The notes under the pieces: model-generated
Databases searched by the model: none
What the model saw: the letters and a program-made list of their open reading frames with translations, nothing else
Told to the model about the DNA's origin: nothing
Assembly: GCA_038214755.1 (NCBI GenBank)
Contig: JBBQRQ010000089.1
Location: 1-20,919 of the forward strand
Direction: 5' to 3'
Source of the DNA: Verrucomicrobiota bacterium
GTDB lineage: Bacteria > Verrucomicrobiota > Verrucomicrobiia > Limisphaerales > CANJXF01
Length of the DNA: 20,919 nucleotides
Program-made: the position numbers and the translations under genes
Part shown: positions 223 through 20,832 of the stretch, in pieces
How positions within the stretch are numbered: the first letter of the stretch is position 1
Layout of the letters: the number at the start of each line of letters is the position of its first letter

Positions 223-258
223 TTAATTGGAAAAACGATTTTTGCCAGCGGGTCGGTG

Positions 259-329
259 CCCTTCTTGGGTAATCAACGAATCACTGCCGAATTCGTCAGG
301 AGAGTTTTCGACAATTTTAAAATTTGGTT
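259..329 (-). repeat. Truncated fourth copy of the head-gene C-terminal segment (array right boundary)
   Basis: Minus strand reads NQILKLSKTLLTNSA(-1 nt)DSLITQEG versus head gene NQILKLSKTLLVNYVGDLLITQEG (2713-2783). Confidence 0.85.
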
Positions 330-949
330 GAAGCGGTCGCGCGTTTCCGAAATTGTCTCAGGCAAGCAAAGATTCCGATTCCCATCGAGAGCAACGCGAT
401 TGAAGACGGTTCTGGCACGATGCCTTCGCGAAACCAGAGGTCGCTACCAGGATTCGGCACTCCTTGAAAGAAAAGAGTTCCGTTTGGATAATTAAAGTTG
501 TTATAGGCACCAATTCCCCACGCGTCGCCGGATTGAACGACCGGCTGAAAATAATAGGTCGTTCCCGGGGTCACTGCCACCGCTGCTGGGAAAAAAAAGT
601 TGGCAACACCATTGCTGCCGCGTCCAAAATTATCCGGAAAAGGTACAGGATCCGTTGAGCCCAAAATCGGCCCAGTGATTGAATCGGACCGCAGATTCAC
701 ATAAACGGTCGCCCCAAGATTATTATTCTGGGTGCCATCGTAGAGGAGGGGTCGAATAAAGCGTACTGAAGAAAAAGACGGGATAAAAGATTGACCGACA
801 GGCTGGCTGGATTGAATCCCTCCTCCCGAGCCGGCACTCTGAGCGTCGTTAGTAACAGACTGTTGATCAAAAATGAAAGTGCTTTGCCCATAGCCCGACA
901 TGGAAAATAAAAGCAGGGCGTAGAACTGTTTCATTAAGTTGGCTTTCAT
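317..949 (-). CDS. PEP-CTERM sorting-domain surface protein, cassette 3 (predicted beta-sandwich, possibly choice-of-anchor R-like)
   Basis: N-terminal signal peptide; C-terminal VPEPSS + hydrophobic helix + RQFRKR; paralog of 1133-1764 and 1948-2586. Confidence 0.92.
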   Translation of the reverse strand: MKANLMKQFYALLLFSMSGYGQSTFIFDQQSVTNDAQSAGSGGGIQSSQPVGQSFIPSFSSVRFIRPLLYDGTQNNNLGATVYVNLRSDSITGPILGSTDPVPFPDNFGRGSNGVANFFFPAAVAVTPGTTYYFQPVVQSGDAWGIGAYNNFNYPNGTLFFQGVPNPGSDLWFREGIVPEPSSIALLSMGIGIFACLRQFRKRATASTKF

Positions 950-1145
950 AAATTTGGAATGTCAATGGGTGCAAACGTGAGGTGCTCAAATTCATCAGAG
1001 CCAACAATCCCTCTTTTCACAAAGTTTGTTCCGTCCCAGTGGACAATAAAAAGTTTTGGCGCGCCAAAGAAAGCGCCCTCTTGGATAATTAGCAGGTCAA
1101 CACATGCTTCGTAAGCCGACTCTCCGACACTTTCAAAATTTTGTT
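946..1145 (-). pseudogene. Orphan C-terminal fragment of the head gene (copy A)
   Basis: NKILKVSESRLTKHV(-1 nt)DLLIIQEGAFFGAPKLFIVHWDGTNFVKRGIVGSDEFEHLTFAPIDIPNL*; its TGA overlaps the ATG of 317-949 (ATGA); no start codon or RBS in frame. Confidence 0.92.
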
Positions 1146-1764
1146 GAAGCGTTGGCGCGCTTCCGAAATTGACTCAGGCAGGCCAAGACTCCGATTCCCA
1201 ACGAGAACAACGCGATTGACGACGGTTCCGGCACGATGCCTTCGCGGAACCAGAGATCACTGCTTGGATTCGGGACGCCTTGAAAAAAAAGAGTGCCACC
1301 TACGTAATTGTAATTATAACCGACTATTGCCCACGTATCACCGGATTGGACAATCGGCTGAAAATAATAAGGTGTTCCAGGTGTTACCGCGACTGGAGTT
1401 GCAAAGAAAAAGTCGGTAAACCCGCGATTACCAAGGCCAAAATTATCCGGCATGGACACTGCGACACTCGAAGCCGAATGGGTCCCATGATGGAATCGGA
1501 GCGCAAGTTCACAAAAACGGTTGCGCCCAAATTATTGTTTGGGGTTCCATCGCCGAACCATAACCGTATGAATCCGATGGAGGAAAACGTCGGGGTGAAA
1601 GATTGTCCGATTGGTTGATTTTGTTGAATCGCTGCCGCTGCACCGCCAGCAGCGACATTCTCATCTGATGATTCCTGGTCATAGATAAAGTTACCTTGGG
1701 CGTGAGCGGAGAGTGACAACAGAAACAATAGTACGCCGAGTTTGCCGAAGAGGTAGCTTTTCAT
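1133..1764 (-). pseudogene. PEP-CTERM surface protein, cassette 2, 1-nt frameshift near 1476
   Basis: ORF 1384-1764 gives the N-half up to SDSIMGPI and ORF 1133-1459 the C-half with VPEPSS; restoring one base gives GPILASSVAVSMPDNF, collinear with the paralogs. Confidence 0.88.
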
Positions 1765-1960
1765 AAGTTAGGAATGGTAATTGGAGCAAACGTAACGTGT
1801 TCAAATTCGTTGGAATAAACGATGCCCCTTTTTACGAAACCTGGGCCATTCCAATGGACAATAAAAAGTTTTGGCGCGCCAAAGAAAGCGCCCTCTTGGA
1901 TAATTAGCAGGTCAACACATGCTTCGTAAGCCGGCTCTCCGACACTTTCAAAATTTTGTT
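1761..1960 (-). pseudogene. Orphan C-terminal fragment of the head gene (copy B)
   Basis: NKILKVSESRLTKHV(-1 nt)DLLIIQEGAFFGAPKLFIVHWNGPGFVKRGIVYSNEFEHVTFAPITIPNL*; ATGA overlap with 1133-1764. Confidence 0.92.
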
Positions 1961-2586
1961 GAAGCGTTGGCGGGTTTCCGAAATTGACTCAGGCAAGCAA
2001 AGACTCCGATTCCCAACGAGAGCAACGCGATTGACGATGGTTCGGGAACGACACCTTCGCGAAACCACAGATCATCAGACAGGAACGGGTTTCCTTGCGA
2101 GTATGCGGTGCCGCCGGGATAATTATAATGGTAGGAAACAAGTCCCCAAGTATCGCCAGATTGGACAACGGGCTGAAAATAATATGGAGTCCCGGGACTC
2201 ACCGATATGGGATTGAAAAAATAAAAATCAATATAGGCAGGAGTGCCGAATCTCCCAAGACCATCAGGCAAGGAAACGGAGCCGCTTGATCCCAGGACGG
2301 TTCCTGTAATTGAACCAGATCGCAAATTGACGTAAAGCGTAGCCCCTAAATTGTTAGATGGGCTGCCATCAAAAAGGTCTAATCGGATGAAACCCACGAA
2401 CGGAAAGCTAGGGGTAAAAGATTGACCGATTGGTTGGTTGGATTGAATAGTGACTGCCGAACCGCCACCGGTGGTCTCAGTCGCTGATTGCTGATCATAA
2501 ATAAATGTCCCTTGGCCGTTAGCACAAATACAAATACTGAATGCCAAAAAGGCAATCGAAGACCAGCCGACCAAGTTTGTTTTCAT
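1948..2586 (-). CDS. PEP-CTERM surface protein, cassette 1 (cognate of the head gene)
   Basis: Signal peptide, VPEPSS + TM helix + basic tail; ATG overlaps the head gene TGA (2583-2586). Confidence 0.92.
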   Translation of the reverse strand: MKTNLVGWSSIAFLAFSICICANGQGTFIYDQQSATETTGGGSAVTIQSNQPIGQSFTPSFPFVGFIRLDLFDGSPSNNLGATLYVNLRSGSITGTVLGSSGSVSLPDGLGRFGTPAYIDFYFFNPISVSPGTPYYFQPVVQSGDTWGLVSYHYNYPGGTAYSQGNPFLSDDLWFREGVVPEPSSIALLSLGIGVFACLSQFRKPANASTKF

Positions 2587-4433
2587 AAATTTGGAATGTT
2601 GATCGGTGCAAAGGTGATATGCTCAAATTCATCGGAGCCAGCGATCCCTCTTTTCACAAAGTTCGTTCCGTCCCAGTGAACAATAAAAAGTTTTGGCTTC
2701 CCAAAGGAGGCACCCTCTTGGGTAATTAGCAGATCACCCACATAGTTCACAAGCAAGGTTTTCGATAATTTTAAAATTTGATTATTGCTTTGATCAACAC
2801 AGTAGAGATCTTGATTGGCGGGAATGATCTCGAAATCTTCTGGAGCAATGCCAAGATCATCATATGAGGTGATAATTCCATTCGTGCTGACGGTATAAAT
2901 GAGAGGAGGAGTTTTGGCTTCGGCACCTGTAATAATTTTCCCCGCCCAAGGCCCCCATTTCTGCACATCGTTAGTGAGCGTAATAACGCCTTCCAGATGA
3001 GTGAAAGGAATATCCCCCACCCTACTCGCAGAGCCTGTTGAATTGATTCGCCATACGCCGCCGCCTGTAAACGAATCAGCACCCGTTACCGCGATCAAAT
3101 CGCCGCCAAAGTTGCCGCTCTGATCCACGTGCAGGCTGCCTCGTAACAAAGTTTCGTTCGGGAGCGTGACCCAGTTGGTGAGGCCTATCGTTCCATCAGC
3201 AGACAGCCGTCCAATTTCACCTTCCGTGCCTGTGCAAAAAACATTTCCCCGTTGGTAAAGCCATTAACCGTTGCTTTCGCTGTGGCAATTTTAATTTCTT
3301 CTGGCAATCCAGAGATGGCCGACCAGTTCGTCACAAAGCCGTTCGTGTCAATCCGGGCGAAGTTGTTGGGTTGACCGCTATCATAATTGTAAGAAACCAG
3401 CAGCGAATTACTCGGCGAATGATAATCAATACCAACTGGATGAGACAAATTAGTGGCAACGACCGTAAATATATTTGTCGGAAAATAATCCTCAATCGTG
3501 ACTGTTGCCGTTGAGTTGGAGCAGGGGAAATATCCATTGGTGCGGATCAACGTCAGCGTCACCGTTTCTTCAAACTCAATTAAATTATCTTCCAAAGGTC
3601 CGATGAGTAAATTTGTGGACGTATTGCCGGCTGGAACCGTGATGTAGGAAAAAATGTTGGTGTAATCAACTCCATTGCTCGCGGTGCCGCTAATTCTATA
3701 ATGCACCGTCAAATCGGAAGCCGTCGAACCGGTGCGGGAAAAGGTAAATATCCCGTTCACCGCCGCGACGCTGTTGCTCGCGTTAGGTTCTTGGGCAATG
3801 TCCAGGCCAAACCTGCCGTTGTTGTCAATACAGACCACGACATCCGGCTGAACCGCCTCGAAAAATTTCATCGGCGTGGTAATAGGAAACGGAGAGAGCG
3901 GCGTCACGTCAGCCAGCCCATAAAAATCGCGATCAAAAATCCATTCTGAAATTATTCAAGTCGGATTTGCTGAGAATTTGATAATACAAATTTGCCTCGG
4001 TGCCATGTGCGGTGAGATAAATCAGATTGTTGGTCTCTTCAATTGAAAGCCAAAGTCCGGAGGTGTAATGGTAGGCCGGTCCGGGAACGGGCGGATTGTC
4101 ATACTCGCCGCCCTCGCCTTCGCCGGGAGAGGGTGCTCCGCTTTCATTGGATAAGCTCATCAAAAATTTCATCAATGCCCTTTCTTCTTTCAAAGCATCG
4201 TAATTCACGGCGCGGTCATCGAATACTAGAACGTCTCCCCAGGAAAAAACATTTAGCTCTGGCCACGGATTCATCGGAAATGGAGGTTGATTGGTAAGCT
4301 GAAGAGAGAAAAATGTTCCCGAGGCGGGAGGAGCCGAAACGAATTTCAACTCTTGCGCCTGGACGCACCAGACGAGATTTAATCCAATGAGAAGGAGAAG
4401 CGGTTTCGCAGTTAAGGGGTGTGAGGTTTTCAT
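2583..4433 (-). pseudogene. Secreted ~616-aa protein with Calx-beta-like domain and probable C-terminal beta-propeller; two 1-nt frameshifts (about 3949, +1; about 3234, -1)
   Basis: Signal peptide MKTSHPLTAKPLLLLIGLNLVWCVQA; three ORFs join as ...SKSDLNNSEWIFDRDFYGLADVTPLS... and ...GEMFFGTGTEGEIGRLSADG...TLLRGSLHVDQ; Calx-beta-like FTFSRTG..DLTVHY.ISGTASNGVDY...DNLIEFEETVTLTL; propeller-like PVGIDY, RGSLHVD, LEGVI, PEDFEI, FEHITFAP repeats. Confidence 0.8.
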
Positions 4434-4465
4434 GTTTTTTGATTCATATCCCAGTGGGGGTGCCA

Positions 4466-4494
4466 ACCATGAATCCGAACTACCGGAAGCGCAA
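4466..4494 (-). promoter_or_regulatory. Candidate sigma70 promoter for the head gene
   Basis: Minus strand TTGCGC-17 nt-CATGGT, ending 32 nt upstream of the ATG at 4433. Confidence 0.4.
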
Positions 4495-4565: not shown

Positions 4566-4787
4566 GTGCCGGCTATCCCGCAACATCGCAAAAGTTTGGG
4601 CGAACGAATTCGCGCGAGGCGTACCAAGGCCAAATTAACGCAAGAGAAGTTGGCTGAAAAAGCTGACCTTTCGACGGTTTATATCAGCGACCTTGAGCGC
4701 GGGAGAGAGAATGTTTCGGTTGATTCCCTGTTAAGAATTGCAAAGGCTTTACAGGTCCGCGTTCGCGACTTCATCCGTGACTTTTAG
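4566..4787 (+). CDS. XRE-family helix-turn-helix transcriptional regulator
   Basis: LGERIRARR..LTQEKLAEKADLSTVYISDLERGRENVSVDSLLRIAKAL is a canonical HTH_3; divergent from the head gene. Confidence 0.93.
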   Translation: MPAIPQHRKSLGERIRARRTKAKLTQEKLAEKADLSTVYISDLERGRENVSVDSLLRIAKALQVRVRDFIRDF

Positions 4788-9695: not shown

Positions 9696-10736
9696 ATGGC
9701 TCTCAAAATTCAACCCAAAAAAAATGGAGCGCGGCGACCTCTCCGGGGTAAAACTAAGCGGCGAAAAATTGTTTCTTTGGCGCGGTCGCATCGGGGCAGC
9801 TTGCGTTCGCCTCTCGCAAAGCCCGTCAAACTCAAACGCGTGGAATTGTCTGAACCGGAAGTTCAGCGCGAGTTGCCGCCGATTCCAATCCCGGAACGAG
9901 ATCGCAGTCCCTACGACGGAGACACTGCCATCAAACTTTACCTTCGCGAAATCGGTCAGGTGAAACTCCTCACCCCGCAAGAGGAGATTGTGCTCGCCGC
10001 CAAAATAAAAAAAGGGGACAAAAAAGCGCGCGAACTGATGATCAAAGCCAACCTGCGGCTGGTCGTAAAAATCGCCCATGACTACGAAAACTTCGGACTG
10101 CCGCTGCTCGATTTGATCAACGAGGGCAACATCGGTTTAATGAAAGCGGTGGAACGTTTTGATCCGGCCAAGGGCGGCAAACTTTCCACTTACGGCTCAT
10201 GGTGGATCAAACAATCGATCAAACGCGCGTTGGCCAATCAGTCGAAAACAATTCGGCTTCCGGTTCATCTGGTGGACAAAATTTCCAAAATGCGGCGGAC
10301 CGCCATGAAGCTGCAGGAAATTTTCGGACGCGAACCGACCGACGAAGAATTGGCCGAAGAAATGGGCATGACCGCCTCGCGCGTCGCGCAAATGCGCACC
10401 GCCGCGATTCGCCCCGCCTCGCTCGACGCTCCGATTGGCGACGACGATTCCAATAGCTTTTCCGAAGTGGTGGAGGACGAAAATGCCGACACGCCCTACG
10501 AACAACTCGAAGACAAAACCGTCACGAGAATGTTGCAGGAGATGGTCAAGACGCTGGATTCGCGTGAGGCGACAATTTTGCGTTATCGCTTCGGACTCGA
10601 CGGCGGCAACGAAAAAACTTTGGAAGAAGTCGGCCAAAAATTTGGCGTCACTCGCGAGCGAGTCCGGCAAATTCAAAACATCGCGCTAAACAAGCTTCGC
10701 AAGATGATCGAGAAGCTCGAAGCGGTTCAGAAATAA
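9696..10736 (+). CDS. RNA polymerase sigma-70 factor, RpoD/RpoS family
   Basis: Region 1.2 DTAIKLYLREIG, region 2 ANLRLVV..DLINEGNIGLMKAVERFD..STYGSWWIKQSI, region 4 TLEEVGQKFGVTRERVRQIQ; basic N-terminal extension; ATG 9696 preferred. Confidence 0.96.
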   Translation: MALKIQPKKNGARRPLRGKTKRRKIVSLARSHRGSLRSPLAKPVKLKRVELSEPEVQRELPPIPIPERDRSPYDGDTAIKLYLREIGQVKLLTPQEEIVLAAKIKKGDKKARELMIKANLRLVVKIAHDYENFGLPLLDLINEGNIGLMKAVERFDPAKGGKLSTYGSWWIKQSIKRALANQSKTIRLPVHLVDKISKMRRTAMKLQEIFGREPTDEELAEEMGMTASRVAQMRTAAIRPASLDAPIGDDDSNSFSEVVEDENADTPYEQLEDKTVTRMLQEMVKTLDSREATILRYRFGLDGGNEKTLEEVGQKFGVTRERVRQIQNIALNKLRKMIEKLEAVQK

Positions 10737-10849
10737 TTTTGGAGCGGCGCGTCTGTTACCGCCGCATTTTTTCTGTTGGGGTCCCGCCGGTTTGGCTCGC
10801 AGAAAATCTCCTAGCCGATTTTCCACCCGTCGCCATAATTCCCACCGTC

Positions 10850-11011
10850 ATGAAAACAACGAACCCGTCGCGGAAAGACTTGGAGCAAGCCATCCGGAAC
10901 GTCCCTGATTTCCCAAAGCCCGGAATTCAATTCAAAACACCTCAAGTCGTTGCTCCCCCTTGCCGGTTATGCGCCAAAGTAATCGATGCGAAGATTCGGG
11001 AGTTTCGGTGA
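10850..11011 (+). pseudogene. apt: 5' fragment of adenine phosphoribosyltransferase (apt')
   Basis: First 29 codons match 11851-11937 at 28/29 aa; degenerate in-register similarity continues (RLCAKVID vs RLFAKCID) to TGA at 11011. Confidence 0.9.
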
Positions 11012-11042
11012 GATAGCTGAACTTTGGCCGGCTCTTCAACGC

Positions 11043-11071
11043 TTGTTTCGGGCGTATTTCAGCAGTAGTTT
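11043..11071 (+). promoter_or_regulatory. Candidate leaderless sigma70 promoter of the TA operon
   Basis: TTGTTT-17 nt-TAGTTT, 6 nt before ATG 11078; no Shine-Dalgarno. Confidence 0.5.
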
Positions 11072-11077
11072 CCAGCC

Positions 11078-11350
11078 ATGACGCGCGAAGAAATCATCCG
11101 GGATATTCACGGGTTGGACGAAGAGTTGGCGGCCTTGGAAAAACAATACGGCTTGCTCTCGCCTGACTTATATCATTTCTACCGTGCTGGAGAACTGGAG
11201 CAGAGCCGGGACTTCATCCGCTGGGCCGCCTGTTACGAAGCCAAGTTGGATCGCGAATCGAGCTATCGCCAACTTATTTACGAACATCTGCGAGAACTTC
11301 GGCGGCAAGCCGGCTTGGGAGCATTGCTGTTGGTTCCACAAGGCGCATGA
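11078..11350 (+). CDS. Putative antitoxin, TumA-like
   Basis: 90 aa helical protein with L..LEKQYGL.S..LY..YRAGELE...DFIRWA..Y pattern; ATGA overlap with the downstream DUF6516-like gene. Confidence 0.7.
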   Translation: MTREEIIRDIHGLDEELAALEKQYGLLSPDLYHFYRAGELEQSRDFIRWAACYEAKLDRESSYRQLIYEHLRELRRQAGLGALLLVPQGA

Positions 11351-11769
11351 GTCTTTCGCTGGGTGACTTCAAAAGTTATAGCGTTTTTATCTACACGTTG
11401 TCGGAGCGACATTCGTTTATAATCAATTCCACTCTCGCGTTGGCCGCCATCGGAGCCGCGTTGGCCAAACTCGAAGGGCGGATTGAGTGCCAAAAAGAAA
11501 TTCATCTCGAGATTTGGGAATTGATCGATTTCGAATCACAGCGAATTCGCGCTTACAGCTATGAGGTCTACCAACGTGGCGAAAAGATCTTTTGGTATGA
11601 CCATTGGGAGCACCCGGAAATTTCCTCACTCGCCGCCACTTTTCCCCATCACAAACATGTGCTTCCCGATCTTCGTGAAAATCGCGTGCCCGCGCACGGC
11701 TTGAGTTTTGAGTCACCCAATTTGGATATTGTGCTTGAGGACGTGCGCCACGAATGTCTCGCAACCTAA
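11347..11769 (+). CDS. Putative toxin, DUF6516/TumE family
   Basis: YSYE...GEKIFWYD..EHPE...ATFPHHKH motif typical of DUF6516. Confidence 0.8.
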   Translation: MSLSLGDFKSYSVFIYTLSERHSFIINSTLALAAIGAALAKLEGRIECQKEIHLEIWELIDFESQRIRAYSYEVYQRGEKIFWYDHWEHPEISSLAATFPHHKHVLPDLRENRVPAHGLSFESPNLDIVLEDVRHECLAT

Positions 11770-11850
11770 TCGAACAGCCGCGCACTTTCACCGCCTGCGG
11801 AAAAAATTCTCGCAGCGCTCTTTCGCTATCCACATACTCCGCCCGATTTT

Positions 11851-12387
11851 ATGAAAACAACGAACCCGTCGCTTAAAGATTTGGAACAAGCTATCCGCAA
11901 CGTCCCGGATTTTCCCAAGCCTGGAATCCAATTCAAAGACATCACGCCACTCCTGGCCAATGGACGGCTCTTCGCAAAATGCATCGACCAGCTCTGCGGA
12001 GATTTTACTCCGGGCGACGTGGACGCCATCGTCGGAATCGATGCGCGCGGATTTATTTTTGCAGCGGCCGCGGCGCTGAAGTTGCAGTGCGGTTTTGTTC
12101 CCGTGCGCAAACAGGGCAAGCTCCCCTTCACCACTTACGAACAAAATTACGAGCTCGAATACGGCTCGAACACCATCGCCATTCACACCGATTCCATTCG
12201 ACACGGCAGCCGTGTCTTGCTCATCGACGACCTTCTCGCCACTGGCGGAACCGCCGCCGCCGCCGCCGAACTTCTAAAAAAAGTGGGCGCGAACATTTTG
12301 GAAATCACCTTCTTCATCGAACTCAGTTTTCTGAATGGCCGCGACAAATTGAAAAATTTTCCGGTGCGTTCACTGGTAGTTTATTGA
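11851..12387 (+). CDS. apt: Adenine phosphoribosyltransferase
   Basis: IRNVPDFPKPGIQFKDITPLL, GIDARGFIF, VRKQGKLP, YELEYG, PRPP motif LLIDDLLATGGT. Confidence 0.98.
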   Translation: MKTTNPSLKDLEQAIRNVPDFPKPGIQFKDITPLLANGRLFAKCIDQLCGDFTPGDVDAIVGIDARGFIFAAAAALKLQCGFVPVRKQGKLPFTTYEQNYELEYGSNTIAIHTDSIRHGSRVLLIDDLLATGGTAAAAAELLKKVGANILEITFFIELSFLNGRDKLKNFPVRSLVVY

Positions 12388-12404
12388 CGCGAACTCGATC
12401 GCAT

Positions 12405-12474
12405 GATTTATGATTTGCGATTGACGCGTCGCTTCGTATTCCGCGCGTAAATCTCAAATCGTAAATCGTCAATC
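12405..12474. repeat. Inverted heptamer arrays
   Basis: GATTTAT GATTTGC GATTGAC ... GTAAATC TCAAATC GTAAATC GTCAATC. Confidence 0.8.
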
Positions 12475-12476
12475 CC

Positions 12477-14813
12477 ATGTCCTGGCTCCATTCAATCGAC
12501 GCCGCCGTTTTCCATTTTATCAACGGCACGCTGAGCAATCCCATTTTTGATGAGGTCATGCCGTTTCTCAGCGGAAATTTTTTTTTCATTCCCGCGCTGC
12601 TTCTCATCGGCGTGGCGCTCATTTGGAAAGGTGGAAAACGCGGGCGAATATTTCTGCTGCTTATTTTGCTCGTCGTCGCGCTGGGTGATGGATGGATTTG
12701 CAACACGATAAAAAAAGCGGTGGCGCGACCTCGGCCATTTTACGAATTTCCCAGCGCTCATTTGCTCGTGGGAAAAGGGAAAGCCTTCAGCATGCCCTCG
12801 TCCCACGCTGCCAATTGGTTCGCCGCCACGACGGTCGCTTTTATTTTTTATCGGCGCAGTTGGCGATTCATGGTGCCGTTGGGGTTGCTCGTCAGCTTCT
12901 CGCGGGTTTATAACGGGGCGCATTATCCCAGCGACATTTTGGTCAGCGCAATTCTCGGCACGGGATACGCCATCGCCTTTGTCTGGTTGGCGAACTCGAT
13001 TTGGCAATTCATCGGCCAACGTTGGTTTCCCCTTTGGTGGAAAATTTCGCCATCGCTGATAAATCCAAATCCACCCATTGATCCCCAAAATTCCGCGTTC
13101 CGCGTTCCGCCTTCCGCGTTCGATTCGCATTTTCTCCGTCTCGGTTACATTCTTATTTTCGCGCTCCTCGCCTTCCGTCTTTTTTATCTCGCATCGCCGG
13201 CGATTGAACTGAGTGAAGATGAAGCTTACCAATGGATTTGGTCGAAGCACCTCGCGCTGTCCTATTTCAGCAAGCCGCCGCTCATCGCCTATGCCCAATT
13301 TCTTGGGACCACCATTTGGGGCGACACGGAATTCGGCGTCCGGTTTTTCTCGCCCGCCATCGCCGCAATTCTGTCGCTTCTCCTTCTTCGATTTCTCACG
13401 CGCGAAATCAACGCGCGTGTTGGCCTCGCTCTCGTCGCGATTCTCACCGCCACGCCGCTGGCCGCAGTCGGCTCAATTCTGATGACCATCGATCCGTTGT
13501 CCGTTTTATTTTGGACCGCGGCGATGCTTGTTGGATGGCGGGCTGTGCAACCCGACGGAACCACTCGCCACTGGCTTTGGGTCGGTCTCTGGATGGGCCT
13601 GGGTTTTCTCAGCAAGTACACCAATCTTTTTCAACTGCTTTGCTGGCTGATTTTTTTTCTTCTCTGGCCACCCGCGCGAAAACATCTTCGCCGTTCGGGT
13701 CCATACCTTGCGCTCTTGCTCGTCGCGATCAGTCTCACACCTGTCCTCCTCTGGAATTCTCAACACGGTTGGGCCACGCTCGATCACATCGCCAACAATG
13801 GCGGGTTGGGCAATGACTGGCATCCCACCTTGCGTTACGCCATCGATTTTCTCATCAATGAATCTCTTCTGCTCAATCCAATTTTTTTCATCGGGATGCT
13901 GGCAGGCGTAGCGCAGGTTTTTAACCTGCTGTATCGCAGGTTTTCAACCTGCAGAATGTCTCCCGTACGAGGCGGCGCCGGTTTTAAACCGGCGATACAG
14001 CAGGTTAAAAACCTGCGCTACGATTCCGTGACGAAATCCGGGTTGAACATTTTTCTTTTCAGCATGGGCGCGCCGCTCTTTTTATTTTATTTCGCTTACA
14101 GTTTTCATTCGCGCATTTTGCCCAACTGGATTGCTCCCTCCATCGTCCCGCTCTTTTGCTTGATGACGATTTATTTTCATAGCCAATGGCCGACTCATCG
14201 TCGGATTTTAAAACCGTTGTTCATCGCCGGTTTGACGCTTGGGTTTCCAATGATCGCTCCGCTGCACGAGACCGACCTCATCCCAAAATTTCTCAAACGC
14301 ACTTTGCCCGCGCAAGCCGACCCGTTGCGCCGCGTCCGCAATTGGCGCGAGACGAGCAGGGCGGTGGAACGAGCGCGGGAGAAACTGGCCACGGAAGGAA
14401 AGCCGACGTTCATTATTGGCGATCATTATGGAATCACCGGCGAAATTTCTTTTTATCTGCCCGAGGCGCAAAGACAGATTCGCGAAAACCCGATTGTTTT
14501 TTTCCGCTCCAGTTCGCATCCAAAAAACCAATTTTATTTTTGGCCAGGCTACGAGTCGCGGACAGGGCAAAATGCGATTTACGTCCAGCAAGTCGATTTG
14601 CCGAAATTGCCAAACGGGTGGATTGGGAAATGGCTTCGAGGCGGAAAGGATTTAACCGCCGCCGCGCCCAAGCCAAATCCTTCAGCGCCAGAAATTTTAG
14701 AACAATTCGCATCGGTCACTGATCTCGGCGTCATGGAGATTTTTTACGGCGAACGAGTATTTCGCAGAATTCAACTTTTTGAATGCCGCAACTTGCGCGA
14801 TGCGCCCCGATGA
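12477..14813 (+). CDS. Fusion of PAP2 phosphatase and GT83/ArnT-like (PMT_2) glycosyltransferase
   Basis: PAP2 motifs KKAVARPRP, PSSH, SRVYNGAHYPSD; then DEAYQWIWSKHLALSYFSKPPL, FGVR, TID, GLGFLSKY, P.LLWN, NW.AP of ArnT-like proteins. Confidence 0.92.
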   Translation: MSWLHSIDAAVFHFINGTLSNPIFDEVMPFLSGNFFFIPALLLIGVALIWKGGKRGRIFLLLILLVVALGDGWICNTIKKAVARPRPFYEFPSAHLLVGKGKAFSMPSSHAANWFAATTVAFIFYRRSWRFMVPLGLLVSFSRVYNGAHYPSDILVSAILGTGYAIAFVWLANSIWQFIGQRWFPLWWKISPSLINPNPPIDPQNSAFRVPPSAFDSHFLRLGYILIFALLAFRLFYLASPAIELSEDEAYQWIWSKHLALSYFSKPPLIAYAQFLGTTIWGDTEFGVRFFSPAIAAILSLLLLRFLTREINARVGLALVAILTATPLAAVGSILMTIDPLSVLFWTAAMLVGWRAVQPDGTTRHWLWVGLWMGLGFLSKYTNLFQLLCWLIFFLLWPPARKHLRRSGPYLALLLVAISLTPVLLWNSQHGWATLDHIANNGGLGNDWHPTLRYAIDFLINESLLLNPIFFIGMLAGVAQVFNLLYRRFSTCRMSPVRGGAGFKPAIQQVKNLRYDSVTKSGLNIFLFSMGAPLFLFYFAYSFHSRILPNWIAPSIVPLFCLMTIYFHSQWPTHRRILKPLFIAGLTLGFPMIAPLHETDLIPKFLKRTLPAQADPLRRVRNWRETSRAVERAREKLATEGKPTFIIGDHYGITGEISFYLPEAQRQIRENPIVFFRSSSHPKNQFYFWPGYESRTGQNAIYVQQVDLPKLPNGWIGKWLRGGKDLTAAAPKPNPSAPEILEQFASVTDLGVMEIFYGERVFRRIQLFECRNLRDAPR
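13091..13121 (+). repeat. Heptamer tandem (TTCCGCG x4) in the PAP2-GT83 interdomain linker
   Basis: TTCCGCG TTCCGCG TTCCGCC TTCCGCG TTC. Confidence 0.8.
13908..14021. mobile_element. GTAG-type REPIN/MITE lying in frame within the PAP2-GT83 CDS
   Basis: Perfect 30-bp terminal inverted repeat GTAGCGCAGGTTTTTAACCTGCTGTATCGC; 114 bp = 38 codons; homolog at 16942-17091. Confidence 0.92.
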
Positions 14814-15815: not shown

Positions 15816-15885
15816 CGGAGCGCCGGTTTGCAACCGGCTTTGTCTCGGCGCGTTGACTCAAAGCCGGTGGCAAACCGGCGCTCCG
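15816..15885. repeat. GGAG-type REP doublet
   Basis: 27-bp inverted repeat with 1 mismatch, CGGAGCGCCGGTTTGCAACCGGCTTTG; each arm has an internal GCCGGT..ACCGGC hairpin. Confidence 0.88.
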
Positions 15886-16864: not shown

Positions 16865-16941
16865 TTTGATTTTGAATTTTTGATTAACAACGGCTGAGGT
16901 TGCTTTGGGGGTGATTCAAACTGGCGGTCAGTTGGTCAGTT

Positions 16942-17091
16942 GTAGCGCAGGATTGCATCCTGCCGTATCGCAGGTTTTCAACCTGCGTGATGTCCCAGAA
17001 CGGGAAACCTTCGGGAACCAGAGACTTTTTATTGTTGCGACCTTCAGCCGGTTTCCAACCGGCGATACGGCAGGATGCAATCCTGCGCTAC
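16942..17091. mobile_element. GTAG-type REPIN/MITE, intergenic
   Basis: Perfect 30-bp terminal inverted repeat GTAGCGCAGGATTGCATCCTGCCGTATCGC; two hairpins per arm; same family as 13908-14021. Confidence 0.92.
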
Positions 17092-17114
17092 GTGTCGGCC
17101 CAGGCAAATCCGCT

Positions 17115-19707: not shown

Positions 19708-19840
19708 AGAGCGTGTTTTAACAACCGGTTTTTACTGTAGGAGCCGAGGTGACGAGGCTCAAATTTTTTGGGAAAATCGGCTCTCTTGGAGCGAGAAATG
19801 AGCCTCGTTGCCTCGGCTCCTACAATTTTAGGCACGCTCT
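19708..19840. mobile_element. Nested element: GTAG REP doublet (19736-19824) inside short outer inverted repeats
   Basis: Inner 26-bp IR with 2 mismatches, TGTAGGAGCCGAGGTGACGAGGCTCA; outer AGAGCGTG...CACGCTCT. Confidence 0.8.
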
Positions 19841-19919
19841 AACCGCCGGCCAACTCGCCAGTGCCCCCAAAAGAGAATTCGCTCTCGCTGGATTCCGTGG
19901 GGTTCCGTATTCTTTATCT

Positions 19920-20289
19920 GTGTTCGAGCAAGCCCAACGACCCGTTAATACGTTTGCCACCACGCACTGGAGTGTCGTGGTGCTGGCCGGACAGGAGCAT
20001 TCGCAGCCGTCCGCGGCCGCGCTAGAGCAACTTTGCCGGGCTTACTGGTATCCGCTTTACGCCTTTGTCCGGGCCAGCGGAAAGCCGCGCGAAGAGGCCC
20101 TCGATTTGACGCAGGAGTTTTTTGCCCGTCTGCTGGAAAAGAAATGGCTTGCCCATGCCGACCCGACCCGCGGGCGGTTCCGCACTTTTCTCCTCACGGC
20201 GCTCAAGTATTTCCTCGTCAACGAATGGCATCGCGACCAGTGCCTCAAGCGCGGCGGTGGGCGGGAATTCATCGAACTGGATGCGCTCC
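19920..20289 (+). pseudogene. ECF sigma factor, region 2 only; 3' half deleted
   Basis: FATTHWSVV...ALEQLCRAYWYPLYAFVR...DLTQEFFARLL...RGRFRTFLL...KRGGG; after ELDAL the frame reads antisense of the opposing gene; no region 4. Confidence 0.85.
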
Positions 20290-20510
20290 AATCGCGCATT
20301 CAAATCAAACCCAAGCTCTTTCAAAGCGGGAATGATTCGTTGGCAGTTTTCTTTGTTCCGCGCCGGGAAAACATCCACGTCCTGAGTCGTGCCCGGGTAG
20401 CCGAGAAGGATCGCCGCACTCTTGCCGAGAAAAAGATATTCAACGCCCCTCCGGTTGAAGGCTTGAGCCAACTCTTGGGCTTGCTCGAAGTGGAAAACGG
20501 GACTCCTCAT
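20284..20510 (-). pseudogene. Nucleotidyltransferase-fold protein, 3'-truncated
   Basis: FNRRGVEYLFLGKSAAILLGYPGTTQDVDVF (DxD motif)...ALKELGFDL; beyond about 20284 the ORF is antisense of the ECF gene. Confidence 0.75.
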
Positions 20511-20736
20511 AAAGCGGCCGGCTTAAACCCCAAATATTCGGGCAGGTTTTCCGCGCACCATTTGCGATATTCTTCCATGATATCGAACGAATGCCAGGGC
20601 GCGTCATCCAGCACAGGTTTGTAAACATAATTACATAATTAAACCCATATTTCATTCGCGCGGAAAGCGGACGCTCCATTTGTCGCTGGCATTGTTCACG
20701 CCATTGCCTGTCTGCCTCGAGATCTTTCTGGTTCAT
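20507..20736 (-). pseudogene. Small (73-aa) protein coupled to the NTase gene, frameshifted by an 8-nt duplication
   Basis: ACATAATT repeated at 20625-20640; removing one copy gives MNQKDLEA...YGFNYVYKPVLDDAPWHSFDIMEEYRKWCAENLPEYLGFKPAAL*, whose TGA overlaps the NTase ATG. Confidence 0.8.
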
Positions 20737-20832
20737 ACTCGAATTTATATATCCATCGCGCGGTAATTTTTCCAAGGCATCTGCGAACTCGATTGGAAAT
20801 TTCAGCGAGCACTCAAAGCAATGAGCCATCGG

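What the first reader, a model, noticed from the sequence alone, without database searches (positions are those of the whole stretch)
10811..12009. Toxin-antitoxin cassette bracketed by a duplicated apt 5' end, with no integrase: homology-arm insertion
Seen: the apt start occurs twice, 1001 bp apart. In the first 29 codons the copies differ at 9 synonymous codons and 1 non-synonymous codon (76/87 nt identical). After IQFK the upstream copy decays abruptly but stays in register (RLCAKVID..EF vs RLFAKCID..DF). Both copies have a -10-like hexamer (CATAAT 10834, CATACT 11833). Established: integrative elements that insert in genes often carry a replacement fragment. Inference: both 5' ends were recently functional apt alleles from different lineages. 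The cassette can spread by recombination using the apt fragment as a homology arm, which refreshes its proximal part. The PEP-CTERM array shows the same 'fresh part + decayed part' signature, suggesting a shared additive gene-capture mechanism.
Basis: partly seen in the sequence, partly recalled or inferred. Interest (0 to 1): 0.75.

Follow-up and report, generated by a model that had tools for sequence, protein, structure and literature searches.

The report
Toxin-antitoxin pair between duplicated apt starts
A small predicted toxin-antitoxin gene pair sits between a dead copy and a working copy of the start of a housekeeping gene (apt), and the layered differences between the two copies suggest that the cell's own recombination, not an integrase, likely inserted it and later likely moved it again between related species; this kind of scar is already known and is common in this genome.

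Summary
The first 87 nt of apt occur twice, 1001 bp apart (76/87 identical; 9 synonymous codons and 1 non-synonymous), around a TumA-like/TumE pair. A second assembly of what may be the source sample spans both junctions.

The locus is a mosaic. The stub carries the genus-type promoter and a recently coding allele, as far from apt as another species' allele. Behind it lies an older in-register relic. The working apt has genus-type coding sequence behind a foreign-type promoter. This fits an old insertion with long target duplication, later re-joined to a relative's empty site inside the stub.

The PEP-CTERM array shows the mirror pattern. Genome-wide, 63 of 74 gene-end repeats have this geometry, but only 3-4 of 56 show a second layer. 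None of 109 other apt loci carries the cassette or a stub, so spread is inferred from one mosaic, not observed. There is no tyrosine recombinase on the contig.

The kind of event is known (Furuta 2010; sequential displacement in T6SS arrays). The scan found it before in this genome and in others.

The parts
9696..10736 (+). Sigma-70 family factor (RpoD/RpoS-like, below the equivalog cut-offs; start codon uncertain); conserved upstream neighbour of apt
   Evidence: Pfam Sigma70 r1.2, r2, r3, r4; NCBIfam; within 205 bp of apt in 90 of 93 loci where the gap could be measured
10737..10772 (+). Half of a multicopy palindromic (REP-like) repeat right after the sigma stop; also present at the empty site of relative G003
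   Evidence: Many genome hits, 120 matches at up to 3 mismatches; G003 interval
10811..10839 (+). Genus-type apt promoter: CTAGCC, 17 nt, CATAAT; now in front of the stub
   Evidence: Same layout before apt in 7 of 8 genus relatives; alignment scores 46-68 to those 7, 34 to G001, 24 to G009; coordinates. Promoter activity inferred.
10850..10936 (+). Fresh apt stub, codons 1-29; first 22 nt identical to apt, the rest a different species-level allele
   Evidence: matches TIGR01090 apt weakly
10937..10990 (+). Older decayed apt relic, codons 30-47, in register, with compensating +1/-1 indels; the stub frame ends at TGA 11009-11011
   Evidence: In-register score p = 5/20000 in two nulls; 37/56 identical to the G003 allele
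11041..11071 (+). The pair's own promoter-like leader (GCTTGT..., TAGTTT at 11066); left edge of the travelling module
   Evidence: A GCTTGT/ACTTGT motif at about the same distance from the start codon in 6 of 7 close homologous pairs from unrelated sites, shifted or weaker in the seventh. Activity inferred.
11078..11350 (+). Predicted antitoxin, 90 aa, TumA-like; stop overlaps the toxin start (ATGA)
   Evidence: NF045776 E 1.5e-4, below cut-off; 217 homologues, no Pfam; complex model with TumE 0.82 against best control 0.23
11347..11769 (+). TumE (DUF6516) family toxin, 140 aa
   Evidence: PF20126 above cut-off; NF045777 below cut-off; W83, Y84, W87, H89, P100-H102, H104 invariant in 65 homologues
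11776..11797 (+). Decayed REP-like half after the toxin stop
   Evidence: 3 genome matches at up to 3 edits, one a REP variant on C12; weak
11796..11850 (+). Foreign-type promoter region of the working apt (CATACT at 11833)
   Evidence: 36/55 ungapped identity to the apt leader of sister-genus genome G009 (unpublished), 0 of 5000 shuffles as high; scores 24-40 to genus leaders, 53 to G009
11851..12387 (+). Intact apt, adenine phosphoribosyltransferase, genus-type coding sequence
   Evidence: TIGR01090 217 bits, cut-off 186; 91-95% aa to 8 genus relatives, 88% to G009; no excess sharing with G009
12477..14813 (+). PAP2 plus PMT_2 membrane protein, conserved downstream neighbour
   Evidence: Pfam; 79-110 bp behind apt in all 9 family relatives
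2583..2783 (-). 3' end of an unnamed gene (ORF 2583-3149), parent of the stubs in the PEP-CTERM array
   Evidence: no Pfam match
1761..1960 (-). Stub A of that 3' end: decayed part (71/95, mismatches 7/7/10, 1-nt deletion) then coding-like part (75/106, mismatches 6/4/21)
946..1145 (-). Stub B: same decayed part (104/105 identical to stub A) then a different fresh allele (95/106 to the parent, mismatches 2/1/8)
317..2586 (-). Three PEP-CTERM genes (317-949, 1133-1764 frameshifted, 1948-2586), each starting at the stop of the parent gene or of a stub
   Evidence: Pfam PF07589 for the first and third; alignment; ORFs

Best explanation
A predicted TumA/TumE toxin-antitoxin pair lies between a dead and a working copy of the apt start with no recombinase beside it, and it likely got there in two rounds of the host's own recombination. 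Round 1 (inferred, old): DNA from another lineage carrying the pair, its own apt promoter and apt entered apt and left a stub of about 47-53 codons upstream; that stub decayed into the relic. Round 2 (inferred, more recent): DNA of a cassette-bearing lineage and of an empty-site relative recombined, with a long homologous arm on one side and a join inside the stub on the other, placed in register because the relic still resembles apt. This put a recently working promoter and codons 1-29 in front of the relic and leaves relic + pair + foreign promoter as the core with no counterpart at an empty site. Incoming linear DNA by natural transformation is the likely vehicle. Which partner was the recipient cannot be told. 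apt stays intact, so the insertion is likely cheap, and the toxin would penalise loss of the cassette by recombination with empty-site DNA. Shown: the duplication, the two layers, the promoter mosaic, empty and differently filled sites in relatives. Inferred: the order of events, the vehicle, toxicity and addiction.
For: Synonymous bias and species-level distance of the stub. Sharp step from 1/41 to 24/44 changed invariant sites at codon 29/30 (ungapped count, inflated by the frameshift; 9/26 in codons 39-53), with the first indel at the step. Stub promoter is genus-type while the working promoter is foreign-type and the working coding sequence genus-type, which needs at least two joins (the foreign match rests on unpublished G009). 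Empty sites in G001 and G003. Mirror case in the PEP-CTERM array: one shared relic followed by two different fresh alleles. Genome-wide, 63 of 74 low-copy gene-end repeats have the stub on the far side of the cargo (p 3e-10 against 50%); 56 kept pairs have pooled mismatches 195/133/545 by codon position and none lies within 5 kb of a tyrosine recombinase. A second clear two-layer stub on C23. More distant TumE loci are often bracketed too, at other genes: 7 of 20 in the order against 20 of 250 random small ORFs of this genome; 9 of 16 inspected brackets overlap a first or last codon of a long frame. ComEC-type and DprA genes are present (weak, they ring in 10 and 11 of 14 controls). Pair model 0.82 against best control 0.23; that mark was reached by 116 of 157 solved complexes and 2 of 215 mismatched pairs, runs agree in at least 96% of contacts, partner pLDDT at least 83. 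Precedents: PMC2853133, PMC5361080 (passages).
Against: No second genome with this cassette at apt: 0 of 109 other apt loci, 0 of 76 other TumE loci next to apt or the sigma gene. The 9 closest TumE pairs (63-71% identity) are not bracketed by any repeat in the flanks held. Only 3 of 56 stubs pass p<0.02 at protein level and 4 of 56 pass p<0.01 by either test; no gradient inside the repeats (17 against 16 of 36, p 0.42). HFIR usually leaves a deletion, not a duplication, and is rare (PMC3240628, introduction). The 22-nt identical run exceeds all 66 allele pairs (best 20 of 21) and needs an extra conversion or a crossover there. Trees do not resolve donors. Competence is untested.
Confidence: 0.5

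Rival explanations
1. Same two layers, but the vehicle is a circle. Recombination between the two apt starts pops out a 1001-bp circle (apt start, relic, pair, foreign promoter), which re-enters an empty site by a single crossover in the first codons and regenerates the duplication.
For: Explains a native upstream promoter, a genus-type working apt and the 22-nt identical run (crossover with conversion) in one step. In E. coli 56 of 60 clones selected for HFIR gave the PCR product that marks a partial gene duplication; 14 sequenced ones had 109-950 bp duplicated, which the authors ascribe to single crossover of a circle (PMC3240628, passages). Furuta et al. propose such a cycle for restriction systems (PMC2853133).
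Against: 87 bp at 83-87% identity is a short, diverged substrate (own knowledge of RecA needs). No excision joint in the contigs of run X1 (contigs drop rare forms, so weak). Furuta et al. state that release and re-infection have no experimental evidence.
Confidence: 0.22
2. One local tandem duplication of the apt start, followed by uneven decay of the upstream copy and an unrelated later insertion of the pair.
For: The first 22 nt are identical, with a Lys2 codon seen in none of the 9 family relatives; a REP-like half precedes both promoters.
Against: Ten of 11 mismatches are third-position (p 0.006 even if the working copy also drifted). The working copy, not the dead one, has the promoter that departs from the genus, and it matches another lineage. 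A step change in decay at codon 29 is not expected from neutral decay.
Confidence: 0.13
3. Remnant of an integrase- or integron-driven island that targeted apt and supplied a replacement 5' end.
For: The interval is a hotspot: 5 of 8 genus relatives hold other cargo there, three with recombination-site-like ends, and the genome has an integron integrase on another contig. The intervals of G005 and G008 contain assembly gaps.
Against: That cargo lies upstream of the apt promoter and duplicates no part of apt; its bounding motif is absent at this locus. No tyrosine recombinase on this contig or on the matching contigs of G004, G005, G007, G008. The antitoxin has no relative among 86 candidate stretches in viral contigs. 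The same geometry occurs at dozens of unrelated genes.
Confidence: 0.06
4. Chimeric assembly of two related organisms.
For: Metagenome-derived genome; related organisms are present in the same run at low depth.
Against: One contig from a second assembly spans 10346-12500 at even depth with no difference; the decayed relic cannot arise from joining two intact alleles; genome contamination 0.96%.
Confidence: 0.03

Closest known systems
Insertion with long target duplication (Furuta, Abe and Kobayashi 2010, PMC2853133, passages read; Nobusato et al. 2000 seen only as a reference)
   Same: Small selfish gene set, no mobility gene, flanked by direct repeats over 30 bp, empty site in a relative; the paper notes that repeats often span a translation start or stop and leave the target gene intact, mostly in naturally competent species.
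   Different: Cargo is a TumE-type toxin-antitoxin pair, not a restriction system. The repeats are 87% alike with synonymous bias (their tabulated repeats that I saw are 93-100% alike), and there is a second, older layer and a foreign promoter.
Sequential displacement at T6SS effector-immunity arrays and rhs C-terminal displacement, by homology-facilitated illegitimate recombination (Kirchberger et al. 2017, PMC5361080, passages read)
   Same: One homologous anchor, resident gene end pushed aside and kept, arrays built by repetition and later exchanged by ordinary recombination. The PEP-CTERM array matches this closely.
   Different: Here the anchor is a housekeeping gene, the displaced piece is a 5' end, and the second join is in register with a relic rather than at an arbitrary microhomology.
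Single-crossover (Campbell-type) integration of a circle with partial homology (PMC3240628, introduction and passages read)
   Same: Gives a partial gene duplication around foreign DNA, RecA-dependent, no integrase.
   Different: Shown for plasmids in E. coli with identical homology; no circle is shown here.
TumE-TumA toxin-antitoxin superfamily (Durairaj et al. 2023, PMC10584680, passages read)
   Same: DUF6516/TumE gene downstream of a small partner in a two-gene unit; predicted complex.
   Different: Distant subfamily: both proteins fall below the NCBIfam equivalog cut-offs; toxicity was tested only for six gammaproteobacterial pairs.
Integrative elements that supply a replacement gene fragment (prophages, genomic islands; own knowledge)
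   Same: Target gene is restored by a fragment brought with the insert.
   Different: No integrase, no short att core, 1 kb in size, and no fixed target: TumE pairs sit at many different genes.

Membership tests
Insertion with long target duplication | Direct repeat longer than 30 bp on both sides of the insert | tested here: met
   87 nt, 76 identical
Insertion with long target duplication | Empty site with one copy in a related genome | tested here: met
   G001 (98 bp) and G003 (137 bp) intervals; these are other species, not strains
Insertion with long target duplication | No other mobile element; insert under 20 kb; repeat unique in the genome | tested here: met
   914 bp between the copies
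Insertion with long target duplication | Restriction and modification genes as cargo (a search criterion of PMC2853133) | tested here: not met
   Cargo is a TumE pair; so it works like that class but is not one of its restriction-modification cases
Homology-facilitated illegitimate recombination | One homologous arm and a 3-10 bp microhomology at the other junction | tested here: inconclusive
   The junction at codon 29/30 is in register and the donor sequence is unknown, so no microhomology can be read
Homology-facilitated illegitimate recombination | Insertion coupled with a deletion of resident DNA | tested here: not met
   Nothing is missing against the empty sites; there is a duplication instead
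Homology-facilitated illegitimate recombination | Natural competence and RecA dependence | not testable with these tools
   ComEC-type and DprA genes present but widespread in controls
TumE-TumA toxin-antitoxin system | TumE (DUF6516) domain | tested here: met
   PF20126 47.5 bits, cut-off 23.4; NF045777 equivalog cut-off not reached
TumE-TumA toxin-antitoxin system | Conserved small upstream partner in a two-gene unit | tested here: met
   Partner at 76-81% identity beside TumE in 9 of the 9 closest loci; ATGA overlap
TumE-TumA toxin-antitoxin system | Partner binds the toxin | tested here: inconclusive
   Model supports binding, 0.82 against best control 0.23 (mark reached by 116 of 157 solved and 2 of 215 mismatched pairs); a model, not a measurement
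TumE-TumA toxin-antitoxin system | Toxicity, translation block and neutralisation | not testable with these tools
   Shown for other members only (PMC10584680)
Integrase-driven genomic island | Integrase next to an attachment site | tested here: not met
   No tyrosine recombinase on C89; serine recombinases and transposases were checked only through Pfam scans of 29 window ORFs
Integron gene cassette | attC-type site at the cassette end, no own promoter | tested here: inconclusive
   No attC model was run. By eye no core/inverse-core pair; the relatives' bounding motif is absent here and the pair has its own promoter-like leader

The most novel reading that the evidence does not exclude
The dead gene stub is a self-renewing landing arm. 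Relic + toxin-antitoxin pair + foreign promoter is a recombinase-free mobile unit that hops between species of the genus by host recombination at apt, possibly as a 1001-bp circle, renews its own arm at each hop and is held by toxin addiction. With the PEP-CTERM array and the C23 stub, this would be the sequence record of the release-and-reinvasion step that the long-target-duplication model predicts and that had no experimental support in PMC2853133.
Probability: 0.25. Interest if true: 0.65.

Novelty: new member of a known kind. Interest (0 to 1): 0.36.

Why it matters
If right, any small gene set that once landed in the end of a conserved gene can keep moving among related species with no mobility gene, because the dead stub guides the next join and the host gene stays whole. 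That would help explain how toxin-antitoxin and defence genes come to sit inside housekeeping operons in genomes like this one, where some 56 such scars were counted. The class of event is known. What this locus adds is an unusually readable two-layer record and a concrete 1-kb substrate for a transformation test.

Tried and rejected
Trees of apt (14 rows) and of the 87-nt segment (13 rows) were star-like and named no donor; segment identities to 9 family genomes gave no consistent nearest relative. The idea that the working apt coding sequence comes from the G009 lineage was rejected: 108 mismatches against 101-135 for the others, 8 shared minority sites against 3-16. Weak similarity to apt beyond codon 47 appeared in local alignments but overlaps the pair's own leader and was not tested against a null, so it is not claimed. 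A gradient of decay inside the genome-wide repeats was not found (36 pairs of 80 nt or more). The donor was not found: no TumE locus beside apt in 401 order genomes (22 with a match, own included) or in 53 loci from the genome collection; the DNA around the two closest antitoxins (87-88%) could not be obtained. Viral contigs gave no relative of the antitoxin. No excision joint in run X1, which is held as contigs only. No RNA holder was listed. The sigma-70 consensus scan found 1 site against 1.3 expected and missed both apt promoters. No earlier finding on look-alike stretches in other genomes. Six paper searches showed no listing on a two-layer stub around a toxin-antitoxin pair; subscription journals are mostly not covered, Prudhomme et al. 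2002 was not held, and the supplements of PMC2853133, which may show gene-start cases, were not opened.

Full report
Setting. The window is a whole contig (C89) of a 5.1-Mb genome in 175 contigs, 97% complete. PEP-CTERM genes, a close TumE relative in a record titled Pedosphaera and earlier notes of the scan point to Verrucomicrobiota; this placement is inferred. The order is sigma-70 gene, apt stub, 90-aa gene, TumE, apt, PAP2/PMT membrane protein.

The observation. The two copies, their spacing, the 9 + 1 codon differences and both hexamers are as described. Mismatches fall 0/1/10 on codon positions. The relic is real: the in-register segment score was reached by 5 of 20000 shuffles and 5 of 20000 random genome stretches, and a +1/-1 pair of indels explains the scrambled codons 30-38. 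A second assembly of run X1 spans both junctions with no difference; the run may be the source sample and is held as contigs only.

The cargo. The 140-aa protein passes the Pfam TumE cut-off. The 90-aa protein has only a weak TumA match but sits beside TumE in all 9 closest loci. The complex model scores 0.82 against a best control of 0.23; the mark was reached by 116 of 157 solved complexes and 2 of 215 mismatched pairs, the runs agree in at least 96% of contacts and the partner's pLDDT is at least 83. This supports binding but does not show it. TumE-TumA pairs were validated as translation-targeting systems for six gammaproteobacterial examples (PMC10584680, passages). The pair brings its own promoter-like leader, conserved in homologues at unrelated sites, which puts its left edge near 11041.

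Which copy is which. The stub's leader has the CTAGCC-17-CATAAT layout found before apt in 7 of 8 genus relatives, and follows the same repeat half as the empty site of G003. The working apt's leader departs from the genus and aligns without gaps to that of G009, a sister-genus genome (36/55; 0 of 5000 shuffles). G009 is flagged unpublished; this match, and the statement that its apt is not next to the sigma gene, rest on it. The working coding sequence is genus-type, 80-85% to genus alleles in codons 30-178 and with no excess sharing with G009. Codons 8-29 of the two copies differ at 11 of 66 sites, the mean distance between species of the genus, and the stub changes only 1 of 41 invariant sites. 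So the locus reads: native promoter, fresh allele, old relic, pair, foreign promoter, native-type apt. A single duplication with neutral decay does not give this. One feature is unexplained by a single linear transfer: the first 22 nt are identical, more than any of 66 allele pairs (best 20 of 21).

Relatives. Of 110 apt loci (30 from genomes, 80 from metagenomes; flanks vary and many are short), only the window's own has a second apt start or the pair. The sigma-apt gap could be measured in 93 and is 205 bp or less in 90; the others are this genome (1114), G007 (706) and G004 (699). Among 8 genus relatives, 2 are empty, 5 carry other small cargo (G006 about 1.3 kb by contig overlap; G005 and G008 with assembly gaps) and G002 gave no orthologous sigma hit. 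That cargo lies upstream of the apt promoter, has its own bounding motif and duplicates no apt sequence. No tyrosine recombinase lies on those contigs in the four relatives searched.

Genome-wide. From 672 nearby direct repeats, 74 rows were low-copy, non-paralogous and at a gene end; 63 had the stub beyond the cargo (43 3' stubs downstream, 20 5' stubs upstream). I dropped 7 rows as paralogue or wrong-strand calls and kept 56. Genes were called as long ORFs, so labels are rough. Median repeat 92 nt, 88% identity, cargo 744 bp; pooled mismatches 195/133/545; third position highest in 46 of 56. None is within 5 kb of a tyrosine recombinase. A decayed in-register extension toward the cargo passed p<0.02 at protein level in 3 of 56 (this one, C23, C36) and p<0.01 by either test in 4; about one is expected by chance. 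Inside the repeats there was no gradient. Two layers are therefore a minority state.

The PEP-CTERM array. It is not a plain tandem of three genes. Each gene starts at the stop of the upstream gene or of a 200-nt copy of that gene's 3' end. The two full stubs share a decayed part (104/105 identical to each other, about 74% to the parent, even mismatches, one shared deletion) and then carry different coding-like alleles (75/106 and 95/106 to the parent, third-position biased).

TumE elsewhere. Of 77 TumE loci, 62 had 1 kb on both sides and 23 of those were bracketed by a repeat of 35 nt or more (own locus included; L131 and L197 may be one record). In the order it was 7 of 20, against 20 of 250 random small ORFs in this genome (different genomes, so an imperfect control). 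Nine of 16 inspected brackets overlap the first or last codons of a long frame, each at a different gene. The 9 closest pairs were not bracketed. The pair is thus a promiscuous passenger, not an apt-specific element.

Mechanism. The best reading is an old insertion with long target duplication and a later re-joining to an empty-site relative inside the stub, by linear DNA with one long arm (0.5). A pop-out circle re-entering by single crossover gives the same layers and explains the identical 22 nt (0.22); partial duplications by that route were seen in E. coli, whereas HFIR usually deletes (PMC3240628, introduction and passages). The sequence cannot separate the two. Local duplication with uneven decay (0.13), an integrase remnant (0.06) and a chimera (0.03) fit worse. 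Addiction by the toxin is inference from the family.

Known or new. Furuta et al. define the class, note repeats that span start or stop sites and leave the gene intact, and propose an invasion cycle whose release step lacked evidence (PMC2853133, passages). Kirchberger et al. give the displacement model and later exchange by ordinary recombination (PMC5361080, passages). Earlier agents of this scan reported the same scars in this genome and several others; I took the first two papers and the circle rival as leads from them and checked the passages and counts myself. Verdict: a real, well-preserved new member of a known kind, with a toxin-antitoxin cargo and a readable second layer. Interest 0.36.

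Noticed in passing
L004:880-1415, L175, L173, L003, L006 (sigma-apt interval of G007, G005, G008); G000 contigs C18, C22, C97: Small one-gene cassettes bounded by a repeated GATAGGCTGCAA motif, the left copy followed by a palindromic CTAA-N5/6-TTAGGC site that recalls an integron or dif-type simple site (resemblance recalled). G005 has an attC-like stretch inside. The genome's integron integrase lies on C31, far from them.
   Followed up: partly
window 230-330 (- strand): A third, shorter stub of the PEP-CTERM parent gene's 3' end follows the last PEP-CTERM gene; it lacks the deletion shared by the other two.
   Followed up: partly
window 1133-1764 (- strand): The middle PEP-CTERM gene is split by a 1-nt deletion relative to its neighbours.
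   Followed up: no
window 2583-4466 (- strand): Three consecutive ORFs (3933-4466, 3185-3907 with a Calx-beta match, 2583-3149) may be pieces of one broken surface-protein gene, next to an HTH_3 gene at 4566-4787.
   Followed up: no
window 19749-20829: An ECF sigma factor frame on the + strand matches only over its middle and is overlapped by two small unnamed ORFs on the - strand (20022-20510, 20440-20829); it looks like another small cassette that cut a gene.
   Followed up: no
window 13903-14024, 15816-15885, 16937-17092, 19736-19824: Long palindromic repeat pairs of several families; the one at 13903-14024 lies in frame inside the PAP2/PMT gene.
   Followed up: no
G000 C23:17397-21540: A 3' stub with two layers, the older one a diverged but coding-like allele of the same gene (a serine hydroxymethyltransferase by recall), 4 kb of cargo between.
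   Followed up: partly
L143:1048-1812: In a cable-bacterium record the first 52 nt of the small gene before TumE recur as the start of the downstream TatD-like gene (label recalled), so the duplicated start is used by both genes.
   Followed up: no
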